A DNA stretch of 26,402 nt from a virus (Duplodnaviria; Heunggongvirae; Uroviricota; Caudoviricetes): positions 1-26,402 of the IMG/VR virus record IMGVR_UViG_2541047828_000003. The stretch is one strand, 5' to 3'. Of the stretch, positions 15,001-24,000 are shown piece by piece (position 1 is the first letter of the stretch; every line of letters begins with the position of its first letter). A program made the position numbers.

Positions 15001-18000
15001 GTTTGATGACATGCGCAGAAAGGCTGTAAACGGCAAATCTGATTATCTGGTTGCGAAAGGGGTAGGTGATTTTACATTCCCCGTGTTGCCCGATGGATCT
15101 CTGTTGCTGGCGCTGGTGGATAAATCCGGCGCAGTCACAGCAGCACAGACAATTACCTCACATGGTGAAAAAAGACTCCTGACAGGTTCAGCAAAGCGGG
15201 GGGCATATCACGCCATAAACGCACCAGAAACAACACAGAGCATCTTAATCGCAGAAGGGCTGGCAACGGCATTATCTGCCCATTTAATTCGTCCAGAGGC
15301 GCTGACAGTGGCGGCGATTGATGCCGGGAACCTGTTATATGTCGCCCAGGTACTGCGGGATAAATTTCCTTCAGCACAAATCATCATTGCTGCGGATAAC
15401 GACCACAGCGAAGGAAGACAAAACACGGGGAGAATAGCAGCAGAAAAAGCAGCTTTATCTGTTTCTGGATGGGTGGCATTACCCCCGACAGATCACAAAG
15501 CAGACTGGAATGATTACCACCAAAAACACGGCATTAAATGCGCCACAGAAGCGTTCAATAAATCAATGTACCAACCACAGGGTAATGGCGTGAAACAGGA
15601 GCCACAGACCATTGAAGGAAGCGATTTTAAGGTTATGGATACCGACCCACTGAAACCAAGAATAGAAAGCCGCGAGGATGGTATTTATTGGGTATCTCCG
15701 AGAGCTGACAGCCAGAGTGGAGAAATCATCAATAACGAAAGCTGGTTATGTTCTCCGTTAAGCGTTATCGGTACTGGCAGAGACGATAAAGACCAGTATC
15801 TCATTCTGCGCTGGCTGTCGTTTGGTTCTGAAACGCCGACAACCGCTGCCATTCCACTGGCTGATATTGGTGAACGTGAAGGATGGCGCACACTTAAAGC
15901 TGGTGGGGTAAATGTCACGACCAAAAGCAGCCTCAGAGCAATACTGGCAGACTGGCTACAACGCAGTGGCTCTCGTGAATTGTGGCGTGTTGCTCATGCC
16001 ACTGGCTGGCAATGCGGAGCGTACATCATGCCTGATGGGGAAATCATCGGAACACCTGAAAATCCTGTGCTGTTCAGCGGGAGAAGCTCAGCCGCAGCCG
16101 GATATACCGTCTCAGGGAGCGCGAAAAGCTGGCGTGATAACGTGGCGCGTCTGGCCTTTGGTAACTATTCAATGATGACCGGGATCGGCGCAGCACTGGC
16201 AGCGCCATTGATTGGGCTGGTGGGCGCTGACGGGTTCGGCATTCATTTCTATGAGCAGTCGAGCGCAGGTAAGACCACCACGGCAAACGTGGCGAGCAGC
16301 TTATACGGCAACCCTGATTTACTGCGGCTGACGTGGTACGGAACCGCGCTGGGGCTGGCAAATGAGGCCGCCGCCCACAATGATGGATTAATGCCGCTTG
16401 ATGAAGTTGGTCAGGGCGCTGATCCTGTCAGCGTTTCACAGTCTGCCTATGCGTTATTTAACGGTGTAGGGAAACTGCAAGGCGCTAAAGACGGTGGAAA
16501 CCGGGATCTAAAACGCTGGCGTACAGTGGCAATCAGCACCGGAGAAATGGATTTAGAAACATTTATCGCTACTTCCGGGCGAAAAACTAAAGCCGGGCAA
16601 CTGGTGCGACTGCTGAATATTCCGTTGAGTAAAGCAGTACGCTTTCACGATTATCAGAACGGAAAACAGCACGCAGACGCACTGAAAGACGCTTACCAGC
16701 ATCACCATGGCGCAGCCGGGCGTGAGTGGATTAAATGGCTGGCAGACCACCAGCAACAGGCAATTAAAACTGTTCGTGACTGCGAAAGCAGATGGAGAAG
16801 TCTGATCCCATCCGATTATGGTGAGCAGGTTCACCGTGTAGCCGCGCGATTTGCCATTCTGGAGGGCGCATTGCTGTTAGGCGAGGTTGTAACAGGCTGG
16901 GATGCTCAGATATGCCGTGATGCGATACAGCACAGCTATAACGCATGGTTGCGCGAGTTCGGCACAGGTAACAAAGAACATCAGCAGATTATTGAACAAA
17001 CGGAGGCATTTCTTAATGCCTATGGGCTTAGCCGTTTTGCACCATTTCCATACAGCCCGGCAGATTTGCCCATCAAAGATTTAGCCGGATACCGTCAGCG
17101 TGGAGAACATGACGAAAGCCCAATGATTTTCTACACATTCCCGGCCACATTTGAAAAGGAGATCGCATGTGGTTTCAACGCAAAACAGTTTGCTGAAGTG
17201 TTGAAAAAAGCCGGGATGCTAACCCCACCAAACAGCGGTCGTGGATACCAAAGAAAATCACCACGTATTCAGGGACGACAAATAAACGTTTATGTACTCA
17301 ATTACCAGCCGGGAGATTATAACTCATCTGAAGAATGAGCTTCTTCATGTGCGTAGAAAAGGTGTTGGTTCAGTTGGTTCAGTTGGTTCAATTTGTAAAG
17401 AGTATTGTTTTATAAGGATTTTATTCTTTTTATTGAACCAACACTGAACCAACAATACGGTATTTTGAACCAACACAATGTGACTGAATTGATGCGCACA
17501 ACACCTGGCTGGCATCAGAGAGTGTTTTACGAGACTTTCGTAAAATCCTGTGTACAAGGGCGTGACGTTTTTGAAAGTGAGCACTACGAAATTTTCGTAG
17601 TTCAGAAAACAGGCCCTGAGAAGTTGTTATGCCTGTTCAGCAAACCATCCGCATAGCTGATCGCGAATCAAATTACCAATGGAGCCAGAAGTAAGGGCAG
17701 AACTGAAAAGCGCCTGCCGTGAAGAGTAATGCGACACCATAAATATAGTTTTTAGAGTCCATAAAAAACCTGTCAAAACCTGACACACAGAACGATGCCA
17801 CCAGCTACTGATCGGTGGCATTTTTTTGTGCTATTTGTTTCATATTTTGCAATTACGATGATGAATATTGCGATTTGTGAAACTATAATAACTGTTGTTT
17901 TATACAGTTCTAAGGGGGCGTTATGGCTGTTTCAGTAAAGCCGGTATTGATAAGTGAGAAGCAAATGGAAGCGATAAAGAAAATTCAGGAAGAGCAGCGT

Positions 18001-21000: not shown

Positions 21001-24000
21001 AAGCCGAATGACTCCAGAGATGGAGAGACTGCAAAATGTCGCCTCTGCCCCAGAATTGAACTCACTAAGCATGGATGCCCTGAAGGCTGGATGGTCTCAA
21101 CTTTTCGGCTCTGACGCGTCTCAGGAAAAGATTCTTCAGGGAATGGGGGCGACATTAAGGCAGGATGAGAAGGGGAATACTATCGTTTCTCTTCCATCAG
21201 GTGATTATGCCCTGAACAAGCCGGGTTTATCACCGCAAGACCTGACTTCGTTTCTTGCTAATGCGTTGGCGTTTACACCAGCGGGCAGGGCTGGAACGGT
21301 GCTTGGTGCCATAGGAAAATCAGCAGCTACAGATTTAGCACTACAGGGAGCCACCAGCCTTGCTGGTGGAGAAGATATTGATCCGTTACAAACGGTAATT
21401 TCTGCTGGCATTGGTGGTATTGGTAAGGGGCTGGAAAATACAGCGAGTGCGGTTTCGAGGGCTGTTCGTGGTGATATGTCTCCTGAAGCAAAGGCTGCTG
21501 TCGACTTTGCATCGGAAAGAAATCTGCCGTTAATGACCAGTGACATGCTGAAAGATAAAACCTTTATGCAGAGTCAGGCTCAGACATTAGGCGAAAGAGT
21601 TCCTTTTTTTGGAACCGGTAAGAATCGACTGAATCAACAACAAGCACGAGAAAATTTAGTCAGAACATTTAGCGATGGTCTGGGTAGCATTTCTGATAAA
21701 CAGCTTTATGAATCTGCGACTAAAGGGCAACAAAAATTCATTGAGGCAGCAGGAAAGCGATATAACCGCATAATTGACGCTATGGGGGATACCCCTGTCG
21801 ATCTCTCAAACACGGTAAAAACTATCGACAATCAGATTGCCGTGTTAAGCCGCCCTGGCAAATCTCAGGATAGAGCCGCGGTAAAAGTCTTGCAGCAATT
21901 TAAAGACGATATCACCAGCGGACCAAATGACCTGCGTCTGGCGAGGGAAAACAGAACCGATCTTCGAAAGCGATTTATAGCGTCATCTGACACTGTTGAT
22001 AAAGATACGCTACAGAAAGCCAGCGATATTATCTACAAGGCATATACGGCGGATATGAAAAAAGCCGTAGCCAAAAATCTTGGAGCAGACGAAGCCATTA
22101 ATATGGCAAGGGTTGATCGCTCATGGTCTAAATTCAATGACATGATGGGAAGAACACGCGTTCAAAAGGCAATAGCCAGCGGCAAGTCCACGCCTGAGGA
22201 TGTAACAAAACTCGTTTTTAGCCAAAGCCCATCAGAACGTTCTCAGCTTTACAGGCTTCTGGATGACAATGGTAGGCAAAACGCACGAGCAGCCATAGTT
22301 CAGAATGCTGTAGATAAGGCGACTGATCCGTCTGGAAATATCAGTGTTGAGAAGTTTATTAATGCGTTACACCGGAACAGGAAGCAATCAGCAACTTTCT
22401 TTAAAGGCGTACATGGAAAGGAACTGGACGGCGTTATTAAATACCTCAACGATACAAGACACGCGGCAAAAGCGAACGTTCAAAACTTAAATGGTCAGCA
22501 ACTTTATGGATTATTAGTTGGTGGTGGCATCATAAACGCAGCAGTATTGGCGGGGATGCTAAAAACGGCTGCGTTTGTTGTTCCTGCTGCTGGTGCCGTA
22601 GGCGGAGCAGCGAAGGCATACGAAAGCCCTGTTATACGAAATGCCTTGTTACGTCTGGCAAATACGCCAAAAGGTAGCACAGCATATGACAGAGCGATCA
22701 GTACGGTCACACAATCGCTCACCAGAGTCGCACAGGCATCACAAAAAGAAGCTCAATAACTGGTTAGCCACGGATGGCTAATTTTTGTTCTTTGCTCTCA
22801 TCCACAGGTAAAGAAGGGCAAGAACAAGACAAAAAACAGAGAATAGATAACCTACCTCATATGGTGCGCCAAAAAAATTAGCTATTGATACGGGCAAAAA
22901 AGCTGAAGCGATCAAAATTGAAAGGCAAAAAATAAGCCCAGTAATATAGTTTATTAAATTCTTAAATGAGAAATGTTTTGCTTGATTTACGGTCTTAGCG
23001 AATGATCGCTTAACGACGGATAAAAGCAAATAGATGGCGACAGTTGCTAATGCCCCTTTCCACCAATCTGGATATAGTTTTGCGACAATCAGACCAAGGA
23101 AAACCATGATGACAGCCTGAGCATTCACACCAACCCTCCCTTTAGCGTTGTTTAGAATGGCAATCATCATATATCCAAGACATGGCATTTGGTACATAGC
23201 TTGGGTCGGGATTTCAAATCCGATCCCCGTTGATGGGGCCGTTACAGTACGCGCATATCCGCTTTATGTGAAACAGGAAGATTTTTCTGATATCACTGCC
23301 ACAGCAAAACACCAATTTCGGGACAAGTACGCGCGCGAGGGGTATCAGTTGCAAAAAATTTTGCAACTACGTCCGACCAGTATGCACACGATGGCGGGGG
23401 GATACCATAAAACTGTTCTCTACATGAGACAGAGTGGTGGTGATGTGTTGATTATCGGCGTATATGCGCACAGGACGCGCTATGACGATGTTTTATGCGG
23501 GTACACCAATCCCATGTATCTGGTGTGATAAATCGCGTTACATGACCTCTCATGTTGTGCTGGTGGTTATCACGACGTTCTGAATCTGGCCTTTGCCTGG
23601 TATTTTGCGACAAGTACGCGCGCGTAGCATCGAAATAATCGGATGGCGTATGCTGCTGGTAATATGAAGACCGATAGCATTAACCGTAAGGAGAAAGACT
23701 TCTCGATAACGGCAAGATCGCGGCAAGGGGGCTGAATTGCGAGGCGAGATTAAGCAACTGTCTTGAACGTAAAAATCATGGAGCAACATGATGGTACGAT
23801 TCATTCCATTCTTCGTTCTTTCTGAGCATTGCGTTCAGGCTTAGTCAAAATTAGTGTTGCGAGCGGACCTATTAGTAATTGTTAGTGCGATGCGCCTGTT
23901 ATGGATTGTTATGGTTGTGGCAGGCCTGATTAATATCCAGTATGACCACCAGCTATGAGAGGCCACCTCAGTGGTTCGCAGTTGCAGGTTTGCACTCAGG

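What the first reader, a model, noticed from the sequence alone, without database searches (positions are those of the whole stretch)
17850..23197. P4-type satellite island carries an operon resembling podovirus (P22-type) ejection proteins plus a membrane moron
Directly 3' of the primase-helicase and origin, insulated by a terminator (17794-17828) and its own promoter region, lies a five-gene operon: a 53-aa putative small regulator, then four genes with overlapping start/stop codons encoding proteins of 153, 225, 473 and 701 aa. Those sizes and their order match what I remember of the P22 gp14-gp7-gp20-gp16 set (about 161/229/471/609 aa). The proteins are Gln/Ala/Gly-rich and low-complexity, and the 225-aa and 701-aa products carry glycine-zipper-like hydrophobic segments, as expected for proteins that leave the capsid and insert in the envelope. 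A convergent AT-rich gene for a small 4-TM membrane protein sits where P22-like phages carry the sieA-type moron. No capsid, portal, terminase or tailspike gene accompanies them. A satellite carrying its own ejection-protein set is, to my knowledge, not a described arrangement; it could serve the satellite's own DNA delivery from a hijacked podovirus capsid, interfere with the helper, or act as an entry-exclusion module.
Basis: partly seen in the sequence, partly recalled or inferred. Interest (0 to 1): 0.8.

Follow-up and report, generated by a model that had tools for sequence, protein, structure and literature searches.

The report
Phage satellite carrying ejection-protein genes
This E. coli island is a variant of EcCIMP1, a phage satellite published in 2025, and it carries its own full set of P22-type DNA-ejection protein genes, half of which has been swapped for a different version taken from P22-like phages; what these genes do for the satellite is still untested.

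Summary
Window 17923-22759 is a five-gene operon. Four of its products are clear homologues of P22 gp14, gp7, gp20 and gp16 (Pfam/PHROG E-values 1e-58 to 1e-162). A convergent AT-rich 4-TM gene sits where P22 has sieA. The island has no capsid, portal, terminase or tailspike gene.

The arrangement is not undescribed. The island (8079-25859, bounded by the att core TCCTATTATC) is 99.2% identical over 11.3 kb to EcCIMP1. EcCIMP1 is a satellite (PICI) at tRNA-Thr that Pick et al. (2025) showed is mobilised by the P22-like phage Kapi1. They called these genes "DNA transfer/DUF2824-like" and guessed a packaging role.

New here:
- This copy has a 3.8-kb swap (most of gp20, gp16 and the membrane gene). 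Part of it is 93% identical to a complete P22-like prophage.
- All 12 E. coli islands inspected keep a gp20+gp16 pair behind a conserved promoter and small gene, in at least three unrelated allele types. That unit is in 498 of 5,426 genomes.
- Serratia and Citrobacter-like relatives do the same. Klebsiella relatives put other penetration and terminase genes in the slot.

Most likely, but inferred: the proteins are loaded into helper capsids and set the DNA-entry specificity of the particles, possibly evading SieA-type exclusion.

The parts
8079..8095 (+). attL: the att core TCCTATTATC, extending into a copy of the 3' end of tRNA-Thr (…CGGCACCA)
   Evidence: The published EcCIMP1 att core occurs exactly twice in the window, against 0.01 expected by chance. 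Flanking sequence was read. The att core is given in PMC11773190.
8261..9475 (+). Island tyrosine integrase (404 aa)
   Evidence: Pfam Arm-DNA-bind_3, Phage_int_M and Phage_integrase. It lies in the 99.2%-identical backbone shared with EcCIMP1.
9903..10106 (+). alpA, which experiments on EcCIMP1 identified as the master activator of the island
   Evidence: Pfam Phage_AlpA 7.4e-20. In EcCIMP1, alpA is required for excision and transfer (PMC11773190).
10550..12619 (+). antA antirepressor-family gene, DUF4222 gene and ash-family gene
   Evidence: Pfam AntA 1.1e-21 and Phage_ASH 2.3e-28; DUF4222 3.2e-23.
14582..17338 (+). Primase-helicase (zinc ribbon + Toprim + DUF927; P4 alpha-like)
   Evidence: Pfam DUF927 3.5e-47, Zn_Ribbon_Prim and Toprim_3; phrog_1139 2.9e-177.
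17364..17476 (.). Putative replication origin: three GTTGGTTCA iterons facing three inverted copies across an AT-rich spacer
   Evidence: the repeat finder families D1 and D2 and inverted pairs I3-I11. That it functions as an origin is inferred from this architecture.
17786..17830 (+). Intrinsic terminator after the replication module
   Evidence: Hairpin GCCACC…GGTGGC followed by T7. Conserved in the E. coli islands.
17838..17907 (+). Promoter block of the operon: TTTCA 17838-42, TGCAAT 17848-53, TATAAT 17884-89, with a weak -35
   Evidence: Conserved across E. coli, Serratia, Citrobacter-like and Klebsiella islands whatever the payload, while the flanks diverge. The unit is present in 498 of 5,426 E. 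coli genomes. Promoter activity itself is inferred.
17923..18084 (+). Small conserved first gene of the operon (53 aa), function unknown
   Evidence: 85-100% identical in all E. coli variants. Homologues occur in Citrobacter, Serratia, Klebsiella and Salmonella. Absent from sequenced phages. The regulator or ribbon-helix-helix idea is untested.
18101..18562 (+). gp14 homologue (DUF2824, 153 aa)
   Evidence: PF11039 4.9e-60 and phrog_651 2.6e-65. 95% identical to EcCIMP1's, 84% to Kapi1's, 24% to P22 gp14.
18556..19233 (+). gp7 ejection-protein homologue (225 aa)
   Evidence: PF25688 P22_gp7 1.9e-72. 99.6% identical to EcCIMP1's, 57% to Kapi1's, 56% to P22's.
19233..20654 (+). gp20 ejection-protein homologue (473 aa). 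It is mosaic: the first ~53 codons are EcCIMP1-type and the rest is swapped
   Evidence: PF16928 1.8e-58 and phrog_917 2e-112. Breakpoint at 19393/19394. Sliding identity profile.
20654..22759 (+). gp16 ejection-protein homologue (701 aa, 'type I' allele)
   Evidence: phrog_770 6.1e-162. 29.5% identity over 482 aa to P22 gp16. 93.8% identical to the gp16 of a complete P22-like prophage. dN/dS 0.13-0.16 among islands.
19394..23202 (.). The 3.8-kb segment replaced relative to published EcCIMP1: gp20 from codon ~54, gp16 and the convergent gene
   Evidence: BLASTN of the window against MP1 gives 99.2% up to 19393, nothing from 19394 to 23202, and 97.7% from 23203. Positions 20882-23135 are 93.4% identical to the CU37RT-2 P22-like prophage.
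22762..22783 (.). Hairpin between the two convergent genes; probable bidirectional terminator
   Evidence: Terminator-like site.
22778..23197 (-). Convergent AT-rich gene for a small membrane protein with about four transmembrane segments, at the sieA position. The maximal ORF is 139 aa; the likely start is GTG at 23128 (116 aa)
   Evidence: Hydrophobic segments. GC 38%. GGGAGGG lies 5 nt before the GTG. 89% identical to the gene at the sieA position of the CU37RT-2 prophage. No similarity to SieA.
24173..24358 (-). Second AlpA-family gene (the alpA_1/xis-like gene of EcCIMP1)
   Evidence: Pfam Phage_AlpA 1.9e-13. In EcCIMP1 it supports helper excision (PMC11773190).
25033..25320 (+). PerC-family gene
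   Evidence: Pfam PerC 3.1e-32; a weak ANR_neg_reg hit. The EcCIMP1 homologue represses LEE.
25850..25859 (+). attR core TCCTATTATC
   Evidence: The chromosomal yagP-like LysR pseudogene follows.

Best explanation
The region is the helper-exploitation operon of an EcCIMP1-type satellite (a PICI integrated at tRNA-Thr) that parasitises P22-like podoviruses.

The operon is driven by a satellite-owned promoter and headed by a conserved small gene. It encodes homologues of the P22 assembly factor gp14 and of the three ejection proteins gp7, gp20 and gp16.

Proposed mechanism:
1. When a P22-like helper is induced, the island excises and replicates. This is shown for EcCIMP1.
2. The operon is expressed. 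This is inferred.
3. The satellite's ejection proteins are loaded into helper procapsids through the scaffold, as foreign ejection proteins are in P22. This is inferred.
4. On the next cell they build the conduit across the periplasm through which the packaged island DNA enters.

The gp20(C-terminal part)/gp16 pair is the functionally matched unit and the published target of SieA-type injection exclusion. Having its own exchangeable pair would let the satellite set or change entry specificity. In particular it could enter lysogens of P22-like phages, its best hosts, despite their exclusion proteins.

The convergent slot carries a swappable envelope protein that probably acts as the island's own entry-exclusion factor.

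Confidence split: identity of the element and genes about 0.95; ejection proteins function in particles about 0.5; specifically exclusion evasion or entry tuning about 0.3.
For: Identity:
- HMM hits.
- 99.2% identity to EcCIMP1 over 8077-19393 and the same att core.
- EcCIMP1 is experimentally excised, AlpA-dependent and transduced by the P22-like phage Kapi1 (PMC11773190).

The cassette is a family hallmark, not an accident:
- 12 of 12 E. coli islands inspected carry gp20+gp16 directly after the small gene. This holds across two integration sites, two integrases and two unrelated primases.
- Serratia and Citrobacter-like islands do likewise.
- The promoter plus small-gene unit is in 498 of 5,426 E. 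coli genomes and absent from sequenced phages.
- The promoter block is conserved across genera.

The slot is the satellite's hijack module: in Klebsiella relatives the same head gene precedes small terminases and tape-measure/transglycosylase-like or baseplate-hub-like proteins.

Constraint: ORFs are intact, with dN/dS 0.13-0.27.

Arms-race signature:
- On a backbone with dS 0.02-0.04, gp16 occurs in three types with no detectable similarity to one another.
- Among islands the gp20 C-terminus changes with the gp16 type.
- Segments are 93-100% identical to real phage or prophage alleles.

Published biology that makes the mechanism feasible (PMC10461980; PMC8402733):
- Foreign ejection-protein sets assemble into P22 capsids and work.
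- gp20 and gp16 must be a matched pair, whereas gp7 is interchangeable.
- SieA blocks P22-type injection, including transducing particles.
- SieA escape maps to the gp20 and gp16 C-terminal regions, and the HK620 set partly escapes.
- Ejection proteins enter procapsids through N-terminal regions and the scaffold.

The minimal island cassette (gp20+gp16 only) is exactly that matched, SieA-targeted pair.
Against: - No experiment shows that island ejection proteins are expressed or enter particles.
- Ejection proteins are loaded before DNA packaging, so they cannot be aimed at satellite-containing particles only. Helper virions would receive them too.
- EcCIMP1 transduction is very inefficient (about 5e3 particles per ml), so whatever the operon does, it does not give high-frequency transfer with Kapi1.
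- dS in the ejection genes far exceeds that of the backbone, so the low dN/dS may reflect selection while the genes were in phages, not in the island.
- One sampled island has a truncated gp16.
- The gp20C-gp16 linkage is not absolute: the CU37RT-2 prophage pairs a P22-like gp20 C-terminus with a type-I gp16.
- Only 2 of 21 EcCIMP1 strains carry a Kapi1-like prophage.
- The SieA-escape residue comparison was uninformative.
Confidence: 0.45

Rival explanations
1. Resident-cell defence module. The ejection-protein homologues, together with the convergent envelope protein, act inside the carrying cell to block DNA entry by incoming P22-like phages. They might titrate or mis-assemble the incoming conduit at the inner membrane. 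This would account for the superinfection immunity reported for EcCIMP1.
For: - EcCIMP1 adds to immunity against Kapi1 superinfection, yet no known defence system is detectable (PMC11773190; PADLOC negative here).
- The convergent slot always holds an envelope-targeted protein: a membrane protein, a signal-peptide protein or a lipoprotein.
- It sits where P22 has sieA.
- High allelic turnover is typical of defence loci.
Against: - Ejection proteins made in the cytoplasm have no known export route to the periplasm.
- The envelope protein alone would suffice for exclusion, as SieA does. The need for four more genes would be unexplained.
- The operon occupies the slot that holds terminase and packaging genes in relatives.
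- The immunity phenotype needs a Kapi1 prophage as well.
Confidence: 0.17
2. Insurance or complementation. The cassette supplies ejection proteins so that the satellite can exploit defective or incompatible P22-like prophages that have lost functional ejection genes, or carry mismatched ones.
For: - The authors of the EcCIMP1 paper argue the same logic for alpA_1, which substitutes for the helper's excisionase.
- Most EcCIMP1 strains lack a Kapi1-like prophage.
- Heterologous ejection-protein sets work in P22 capsids.
Against: - A helper that can still make heads, tails and terminase but lacks ejection proteins is a narrow case.
- This does not explain the rapid allele replacement or the gp20+gp16-only variants better than entry tuning does.
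Confidence: 0.12
3. Recombination by-product. The block was captured from P22-like phages by homologous or illegitimate recombination. It persists as a homology patch, perhaps allowing co-integration with helper concatemers for headful packaging, without its proteins mattering.
For: - Segments are 93-100% identical to prophage and phage alleles.
- dS in the ejection genes is far above that of the backbone.
- Transduction frequency is very low and no terminase or pac function has been identified.
- One truncated gp16 was found.
Against: - ORFs are intact in 11 of 12 islands and in other genera.
- They are driven by a satellite-specific promoter conserved across genera.
- Translationally coupled gene junctions are maintained.
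- DNA identity to the known helper Kapi1 is only 81% over 590 bp, which is poor for recombination.
Confidence: 0.12
4. Helper interference. Satellite gp20/gp16 of a type mismatched to the helper's co-assemble into helper virions and make them non-infectious, as single-gene Sf6/P22 hybrids are.
For: - P22 carrying only Sf6 gene 16 or only Sf6 gene 20 makes non-infectious particles.
- Satellites commonly reduce helper yield.
- Island gp16 types are often unrelated to the helper's.
Against: - EcCIMP1 does not lower Kapi1 titres after induction.
- Satellite particles would be poisoned equally.
Confidence: 0.07
5. Packaging or capsid-morphogenesis role, as suggested by Pick et al. The gene products would redirect helper packaging or head assembly towards island DNA.
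For: - The position downstream of the primase is where PICIs keep packaging modules.
- gp14/phrog_651 is labelled 'head morphogenesis'.
- Relatives carry small terminases in the same operon.
Against: - In P22, gp7, gp20 and gp16 are dispensable for making DNA-filled particles and act only at injection.
- Many islands lack gp14 and gp7 altogether.
- No terminase or scaffold-like family was detected in the island.
Confidence: 0.07

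Closest known systems
EcCIMP1 (E. coli MP1 phage-inducible chromosomal island; Pick, Stadel & Raivio, ISME J 2025, PMC11773190)
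   Same: - Same att core and thrW site.
- 99.2% DNA identity from attL through integrase, alpA, antA, ash, primase, small gene, gp14, gp7 and the first ~53 codons of gp20, and 97.7% over 23203-25116.
- Same gene order, including the second AlpA gene and PerC.
   Different: - A 3.8-kb segment is replaced. gp20 is 473 aa against 439 aa, with 48% identity confined to the N-terminal 187 aa.
- gp16 is 701 aa and unrelated to EcCIMP1's 906-aa protein with a lytic transglycosylase domain.
- The convergent gene encodes a protein with about four transmembrane segments instead of a 232-aa lipoprotein.
- The island is 17.8 kb against 19.96 kb.
- It lies in tandem behind another element rather than next to thrW.
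Phage P22 genes 14-7-20-16-sieA (ejection-protein region of P22-like podoviruses; also Sf6, HK620, CUS-3, Kapi1)
   Same: - Same gene order and near-identical sizes, with a convergent small membrane gene after gene 16.
- Family-level homology of all four proteins.
- The same kind of mosaicism and gp20/gp16 diversity as described among P22-like phages.
   Different: - Here the block is detached from all head, tail and lysis genes.
- It is placed behind a satellite promoter and a small gene that no sequenced phage has.
- The convergent gene is not a SieA homologue.
Gram-negative PICIs such as EcCICFT073 and EcCIEDL933 (int-alpA-pri/rep-packaging module)
   Same: Integrase, AlpA master activator, primase with an adjacent origin, then an operon that exploits the helper, and a PerC-family accessory gene (PMC11773190).
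   Different: Those carry capsid-size redirection, Rpp or small-terminase functions. This lineage carries DNA-ejection proteins instead. By the SatelliteFinder scheme it scores only as 'Type C #var01'.
Satellite P4
   Same: A P4-alpha-like primase (zinc ribbon + Toprim + DUF927), an Ash-family protein, AlpA-type regulation, a tyrosine integrase at a tRNA, and a size of the same order.
   Different: No Psu, Sid or Delta was detected. The helper is a P22-like podovirus, not a P2-like myovirus. There is no sign of capsid-size redirection.

Membership tests
P22-type ejection-protein set (gp14, gp7, gp20, gp16) | Sequence membership of each protein in the gp14 (DUF2824), gp7, gp20 (Inj_translocase) and gp16 families | tested here: met
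   PF11039 4.9e-60, PF25688 1.9e-72 and PF16928 1.8e-58 are all far above the gathering scores. For gp16: phrog_770 6e-162 and a direct BLASTP alignment to P22 gp16 of 29.5% over 482 aa. The Pfam scan gave no significant family hit for the 701-aa protein.
P22-type ejection-protein set (gp14, gp7, gp20, gp16) | Gene order 14-7-20-16, tightly coupled, followed by a convergent moron | tested here: met
   Compare with the P22 annotation. Overlapping junctions.
P22-type ejection-protein set (gp14, gp7, gp20, gp16) | Proteins are packaged in virions and released to form the DNA conduit | not testable with these tools
   This needs particle proteomics and infection assays. It is shown only for phage-borne homologues (PMC10461980, PMC8402733).
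EcCIMP1-type PICI | Flanked by the att core TCCTATTATC at tRNA-Thr (thrW), between proA and yagU | tested here: met
   The core is at 8079 and 25850. In the source genome thrW lies upstream, with another element in between.
EcCIMP1-type PICI | Backbone int-alpA-antA-ash-primase with high identity to EcCIMP1 | tested here: met
   99.2% over 11.3 kb. Domain content.
EcCIMP1-type PICI | Helper-dependent excision and transduction by a P22-like phage | not testable with these tools
   Shown for EcCIMP1 itself. Not tested for this variant.
P4-like satellite (SatelliteFinder core: int, alpA, alpha, epsilon, sid, delta, psu) | Presence of the capsid-size and transactivation genes sid, psu and delta | tested here: not met
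   No Psu, Sid or Ogr/Delta family hit in any island ORF scanned with Pfam. Only int, alpA and an alpha-like primase are present.
SieA superinfection-exclusion protein (types A, B, C) | Sequence similarity to SieA, including the conserved cytoplasmic motif FnRYPnEAnnFNK | tested here: not met
   No BLASTP hit to P22 SieA. The motif is absent from the sequence. tblastn against 50,697 phage records found nothing.
SieA superinfection-exclusion protein (types A, B, C) | Small multi-pass inner-membrane protein encoded convergently between gene 16 and the tailspike in P22-like prophages | tested here: met
   About four hydrophobic segments. The 89%-identical gene occupies exactly that position in the CU37RT-2 P22-like prophage. 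This is a positional and functional analogy only.
Ribbon-helix-helix regulator (for the 53-aa product) | Strand-helix-helix fold with similarity to Arc, MetJ or CopG | tested here: inconclusive
   The AlphaFold monomer (pLDDT 73) shows an extended N-terminus plus two helices. Foldseek against the PDB found no match with E<1. No Pfam, NCBIfam or PHROG hit.

The most novel reading that the evidence does not exclude
A lineage of enterobacterial satellites carries, behind one conserved promoter and head gene, exchangeable DNA-penetration proteins matched to the helper's virion type. These are the podovirus gp20/gp16 conduit pairs in Escherichia, Serratia and Citrobacter-like islands, and tape-measure/transglycosylase-like or baseplate-hub-like proteins in Klebsiella. 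The satellites use them to re-equip stolen capsids so that satellite particles can inject into cells protected by SieA-type exclusion, especially helper lysogens. That would be a new category of satellite piracy, acting on the entry step rather than on capsid size, packaging or tails. The paired convergent slot would supply the satellite's own exclusion protein.
Probability: 0.25. Interest if true: 0.75.

Novelty: new member of a known kind. Interest (0 to 1): 0.45.

Why it matters
Known phage satellites hijack capsid size, packaging specificity or tails. None is known to act on DNA entry.

This family occurs in about 9% of complete E. coli genomes. It has already been shown to be mobilised by a P22-like phage, but the function of its largest operon is unknown. 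The operon's products were only vaguely annotated in print.

Three points turn that vague annotation into a sharp, testable hypothesis:
- The operon is a full gp14/gp7/gp20/gp16 set.
- The gp20/gp16 pair is the conserved, rapidly exchanged core.
- That pair is the published target of SieA exclusion.

If the hypothesis is right, it would link satellite biology to superinfection exclusion. It would also explain how satellites reach helper lysogens.

If it is wrong, the locus still documents frequent gene exchange between satellites and P22-like prophages.

Tried and rejected
1. **One-genome-per-species scan with a gp20 alignment.** The back-translated patterns were too narrow, and only one locus came back (an Escherichia sp., 98% identical gp20). 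It says nothing about taxonomic breadth. Breadth came instead from homologues of the small protein and their contigs.

2. **SieA-escape residues.** P22 gp16 G532 aligns to G in the window and S in CP53, and P546 aligns to K. The gp20 338-350 region is not alignable. At 30-38% identity this cannot be interpreted, so I did not use it.

3. **The 53-aa protein as a ribbon-helix-helix regulator.** The predicted topology is compatible, but there is no fold or family match. I left it as unknown.

4. **Known defence systems.** PADLOC gave no hits for the cassette or the distal ORFs.

5. **Shared regulator sites.** The conserved promoter motifs do not recur elsewhere in the window above chance.

6. **The sigma-70 scan.** It found no promoter upstream of the small gene, because the -35 is weak. 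I found the TATAAT by reading the sequence and by cross-genus conservation.

7. **tblastn against phages.** Neither the small protein nor the convergent-gene product matches any sequenced phage.

8. **'Decayed prophage remnant'.** I considered and rejected this. The island is bounded by its own att sites and is a nearly identical copy of a mobile element shown to be functional. The genes are intact and under constraint.

9. **The capsid gene at 2656-3684.** I rejected the idea that it belongs to the island. It lies outside attL, in a separate low-GC element with its own integrase.

Full report

Yes. The six ORFs are at the stated coordinates.

- The 153-aa protein is DUF2824, the P22 gp14 family (4.9e-60).
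- The 225-aa protein is PF25688, P22_gp7 (1.9e-72).
- The 473-aa protein is PF16928, Inj_translocase, i.e. gp20 (1.8e-58).
- The 701-aa protein matches phrog_770, 'DNA transfer protein' (6e-162).

The 701-aa protein also aligns directly to P22 gp16 at 29.5% identity over 482 residues.

P22 itself has genes 14-7-20-16 of 151/229/471/609 aa, followed by a convergent sieA. So order, sizes and the position of the convergent gene all match.

The surrounding features are also there:
- A P4-alpha-like primase at 14582-17338.
- An iteron origin, with three GTTGGTTCA repeats facing three inverted copies (17364-17476).
- A strong terminator hairpin at 17786-17830.
- A perfect TATAAT at 17884-17889.
- TAATG or 7-nt overlaps between the ejection genes.
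- 42% Gln+Ala+Gly and a glycine-zipper tail in gp7, and a hydrophobic Gly/Ala segment in gp16.
- A convergent gene of 38% GC with about four transmembrane segments.

**2. What is the element?**

It is E. coli DNA. The window differs from strain 20KM2222 by 2 of 17,078 bases.

The literature search found EcCIMP1 (Pick, Stadel & Raivio, ISME J 2025, PMC11773190). EcCIMP1 is a 19,963-bp phage-inducible chromosomal island at tRNA-Thr, between proA and yagU, flanked by TCCTATTATC. It excises only when the P22-like phage Kapi1 is induced. It needs its integrase and alpA, and Kapi1 transduces it at low frequency.

That att core occurs exactly twice in the window, at 8079 and 25850, against 0.01 expected by chance.

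A direct comparison with strain MP1 gives three segments:
- 99.2% identity over 8077-19393.
- No detectable similarity over 19394-23202.
- 97.7% identity over 23203-25116.

So the window holds EcCIMP1 with a 3.8-kb replacement. The replacement covers gp20 from about codon 54, all of gp16 and the convergent gene.

The EcCIMP1 authors coloured these genes 'DNA transfer'. [quoted passage not shown] The arrangement is therefore published, although it was not recognised there as the complete ejection-protein set.

The large satellite survey (PMC10085698) does not mention ejection proteins, and it set such 'Type C' elements aside.

The island has no Psu, Sid or Delta, so 'P4-type' applies only to the primase, AlpA and Ash backbone.

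**3. Comparative anatomy**

*Prevalence.* The promoter plus small-gene unit (17740-18071) is present in 498 of 5,426 complete E. coli genomes.

*Consistency.* I inspected 12 E. coli islands, five of them picked from an even spread of the identity ranking without looking at their content. In all 12 the small gene is followed by gp20+gp16. One has a truncated gp16.

*Cassette configurations:*
- 14-7-20-16 with a 701-aa gp16.
- 14-7-20-16 with a 906-aa gp16 that carries a lytic transglycosylase domain.
- 20-16 alone, with a 701-aa gp16.
- 20-16 alone, with a 705-aa gp16.

These are combined freely with two integrases and sites (thrW, yicC/yicG) and two unrelated primases (DUF927/Toprim, DUF5906).

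*Allele types.* The three gp16 types have no detectable similarity to one another.

*gp20 mosaicism.* gp20 has breakpoints near residues 60 and 180-210. Among islands its C-terminal part changes with the gp16 type.

*Matches to real phages:*
- Window 20882-23135 is 93.4% identical to a complete P22-like prophage at argW in strain CU37RT-2.
- The C-terminal half of SCU-108's gp20 is 93-100% identical to Kapi1's.

*Exception.* CU37RT-2 pairs a P22-like gp20 C-terminus with a type-I gp16. So the gp20C-gp16 linkage is a tendency and not a rule.

*Selection.* dN/dS is 0.13-0.16 for gp16, 0.24-0.27 for gp20 and 0.16-0.20 for gp14. However, dS in these genes (0.09-0.38) far exceeds dS in the primase (0.02-0.04). 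Much of the divergence was therefore imported and may have been filtered by selection in phages.

**4. Beyond E. coli**

The small protein has no match in 50,697 phage records. It does have homologues in Citrobacter, Serratia, Klebsiella and Salmonella.

- Serratia nevei islands with the same backbone carry small gene, gp20, then gp16 with SLT and Phage_P22_gp16 domains.
- Citrobacter-like metagenome contigs carry the full gp14-gp7-gp20-gp16 set.
- In two Klebsiella michiganensis lineages the same head gene precedes different payloads. One is a 605-aa protein with tape-measure and 'tail injection transglycosylase' similarity, followed by a small-terminase-like protein. The other is a baseplate-hub-like protein, followed by small terminases.

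The promoter block is conserved across all four genera while the flanks diverge.

The operon is therefore the satellite's own helper-exploitation slot. Ejection proteins are one of its payloads, and the only payload found in the 12 E. coli islands inspected.

**5. The convergent slot**

The island variants share the 5' end (…AAAGGGAGGGTTGGTGTG…) and then diverge completely. The products are two different multi-pass membrane proteins and a protein with a signal peptide. EcCIMP1 itself has a lipoprotein there, which does not share that 5' end.

Reading the DNA shows GGGAGGG 5 nt before an in-frame GTG. Starting there gives the CP53 variant a textbook signal peptide, MNQLKRLVVSGLLFASFGANA.

So the shared 'leader' is best read as a fixed ribosome-binding site and start codon, behind which envelope-protein bodies are exchanged.

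The window's version has these properties:
- It is 89% identical to the gene at the sieA position of the CU37RT-2 prophage.
- It has no similarity to SieA.
- It lacks the conserved SieA motif.
- It matches nothing in sequenced phages.

**6. Mechanism**

*Shown by others.* EcCIMP1 is helper-induced and is transferred by a P22-like phage. It does not reduce helper titre. It adds superinfection immunity only in lysogens.

*Shown for phage homologues* (PMC10461980; PMC8402733):
- gp7, gp20 and gp16 are loaded into procapsids through the scaffold and N-terminal regions. They are not needed to fill heads with DNA. They form the injection conduit.
- Heterologous sets assemble and function in P22.
- gp20 and gp16 must be matched.
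- SieA blocks injection by P22-like particles, including transducing particles.
- SieA escape maps to the C-terminal regions of gp20 and gp16.

*Inferred here.* The island's proteins enter helper procapsids and form the conduit for the particles released. Possessing an exchangeable gp20C/gp16 pair lets the satellite alter entry specificity. It might thereby bypass exclusion in lysogens of P22-like phages, which are the cells where a satellite most needs to land.

*Supporting pattern.* The minimal conserved cassette is exactly the matched, SieA-targeted pair, and it turns over on a nearly invariant backbone.

*Weak points:*
- Ejection proteins cannot be directed to satellite-containing heads only.
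- Transduction by Kapi1 is very inefficient.
- There are no expression or proteomic data.
- The low dN/dS may be inherited from phages.

I put about 0.95 on the identity, about 0.5 on a function inside particles, and about 0.3 on exclusion evasion specifically. The rivals are listed with their tests: resident-cell exclusion, insurance for defective helpers, recombination by-product, helper poisoning, and packaging.

**7. Novelty and verdict**

Its claim that the arrangement is undescribed does not hold, because this is a cassette-swapped member of the published EcCIMP1 family.

This analysis adds:
- The explicit gp14/gp7/gp20/gp16 assignment.
- The exact swap boundaries.
- The finding that a gp20+gp16 pair is the invariant, rapidly exchanged core of the family across sites, primases and genera.
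- The conserved promoter and head gene with alternative payloads.
- The fixed-start envelope-protein slot.
- The link to the published SieA target.

Interest is moderate: a known element with an unresolved function that can now be tested directly.

Noticed in passing
window 1-8078 (continues about 5 kb further upstream to tRNA-Thr in NZ_CP151050; locus L019 4017-17078): A separate low-GC (33-43%) element lies between thrW and the island. It has its own tyrosine integrase (6657-8021, minus strand), a capsid protein E-like gene (2656-3684), a 613-aa protein with no family hit (3990-5831), a Dit-like/baseplate protein (5865-6575) and an HTH protein (1-558). No terminase or portal is seen in the window. 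At least 80% of it is present in 269 E. coli genomes. It could be another satellite-like or defective phage element in a tandem array at thrW.
   Followed up: partly
window 23203-24170: About 1 kb between the convergent gene and the second AlpA gene has no annotated gene and no family hit (ORFs 23148-23528 +, 23550-23804 -, 23841-24176 -). In relatives the region distal to the cassette holds variable defence-type cargo: Abi_2, RnlA/RnlB, SLFN_AlbA_2, ImmA/IrrE, Fic, Abi_C. It may be a defence hotspot that is empty or unrecognised here.
   Followed up: partly
window 11552-12619 (alternative frame 12214-12408): The same sequence is annotated in one genome as an intact 355-aa Ash-family gene. In another it is annotated as a truncated ash pseudogene plus an 'Icd-like host cell division inhibitor' ORF in a different frame. 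This is either an annotation conflict or an embedded overlapping gene.
   Followed up: no
L013 10248-12065 and L017 10198-11202 (Klebsiella michiganensis islands): Behind the same conserved promoter and small gene, Klebsiella relatives carry other genes followed by small-terminase-like genes. One is a 605-aa protein with tape-measure/'tail injection transglycosylase' similarity; the other is a baseplate-hub-like protein. This suggests the slot generally holds virion penetration proteins matched to other helper types.
   Followed up: partly
window 19233-20654 (gp20): gp20 is finely mosaic. Residues 1-60 are EcCIMP1-type (96% then 83% identity in successive 30-residue windows). Residues 60-180 are 60-70% identical to the CP53 type. 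Residues 180-473 are 93-100% identical to the CP53/Ecol_244 type. Recombination breakpoints therefore lie inside the gene, roughly at the boundary between the published procapsid-binding N-terminal part and the C-terminal part.
   Followed up: yes
window 25117-25849: The right end of the island, between the PerC gene and attR, is not similar to EcCIMP1. In MP1 that position has extra genes (a pRiA4b ORF-3 family protein and hypotheticals), which accounts for part of the 17.8 kb against 20 kb size difference.
   Followed up: no
L023 7828-9643 (E. coli EC36): One of the 12 islands inspected has a gp16 annotated as a truncated pseudogene missing its C-terminus. Loss of the cassette's integrity does occur.
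   Followed up: no
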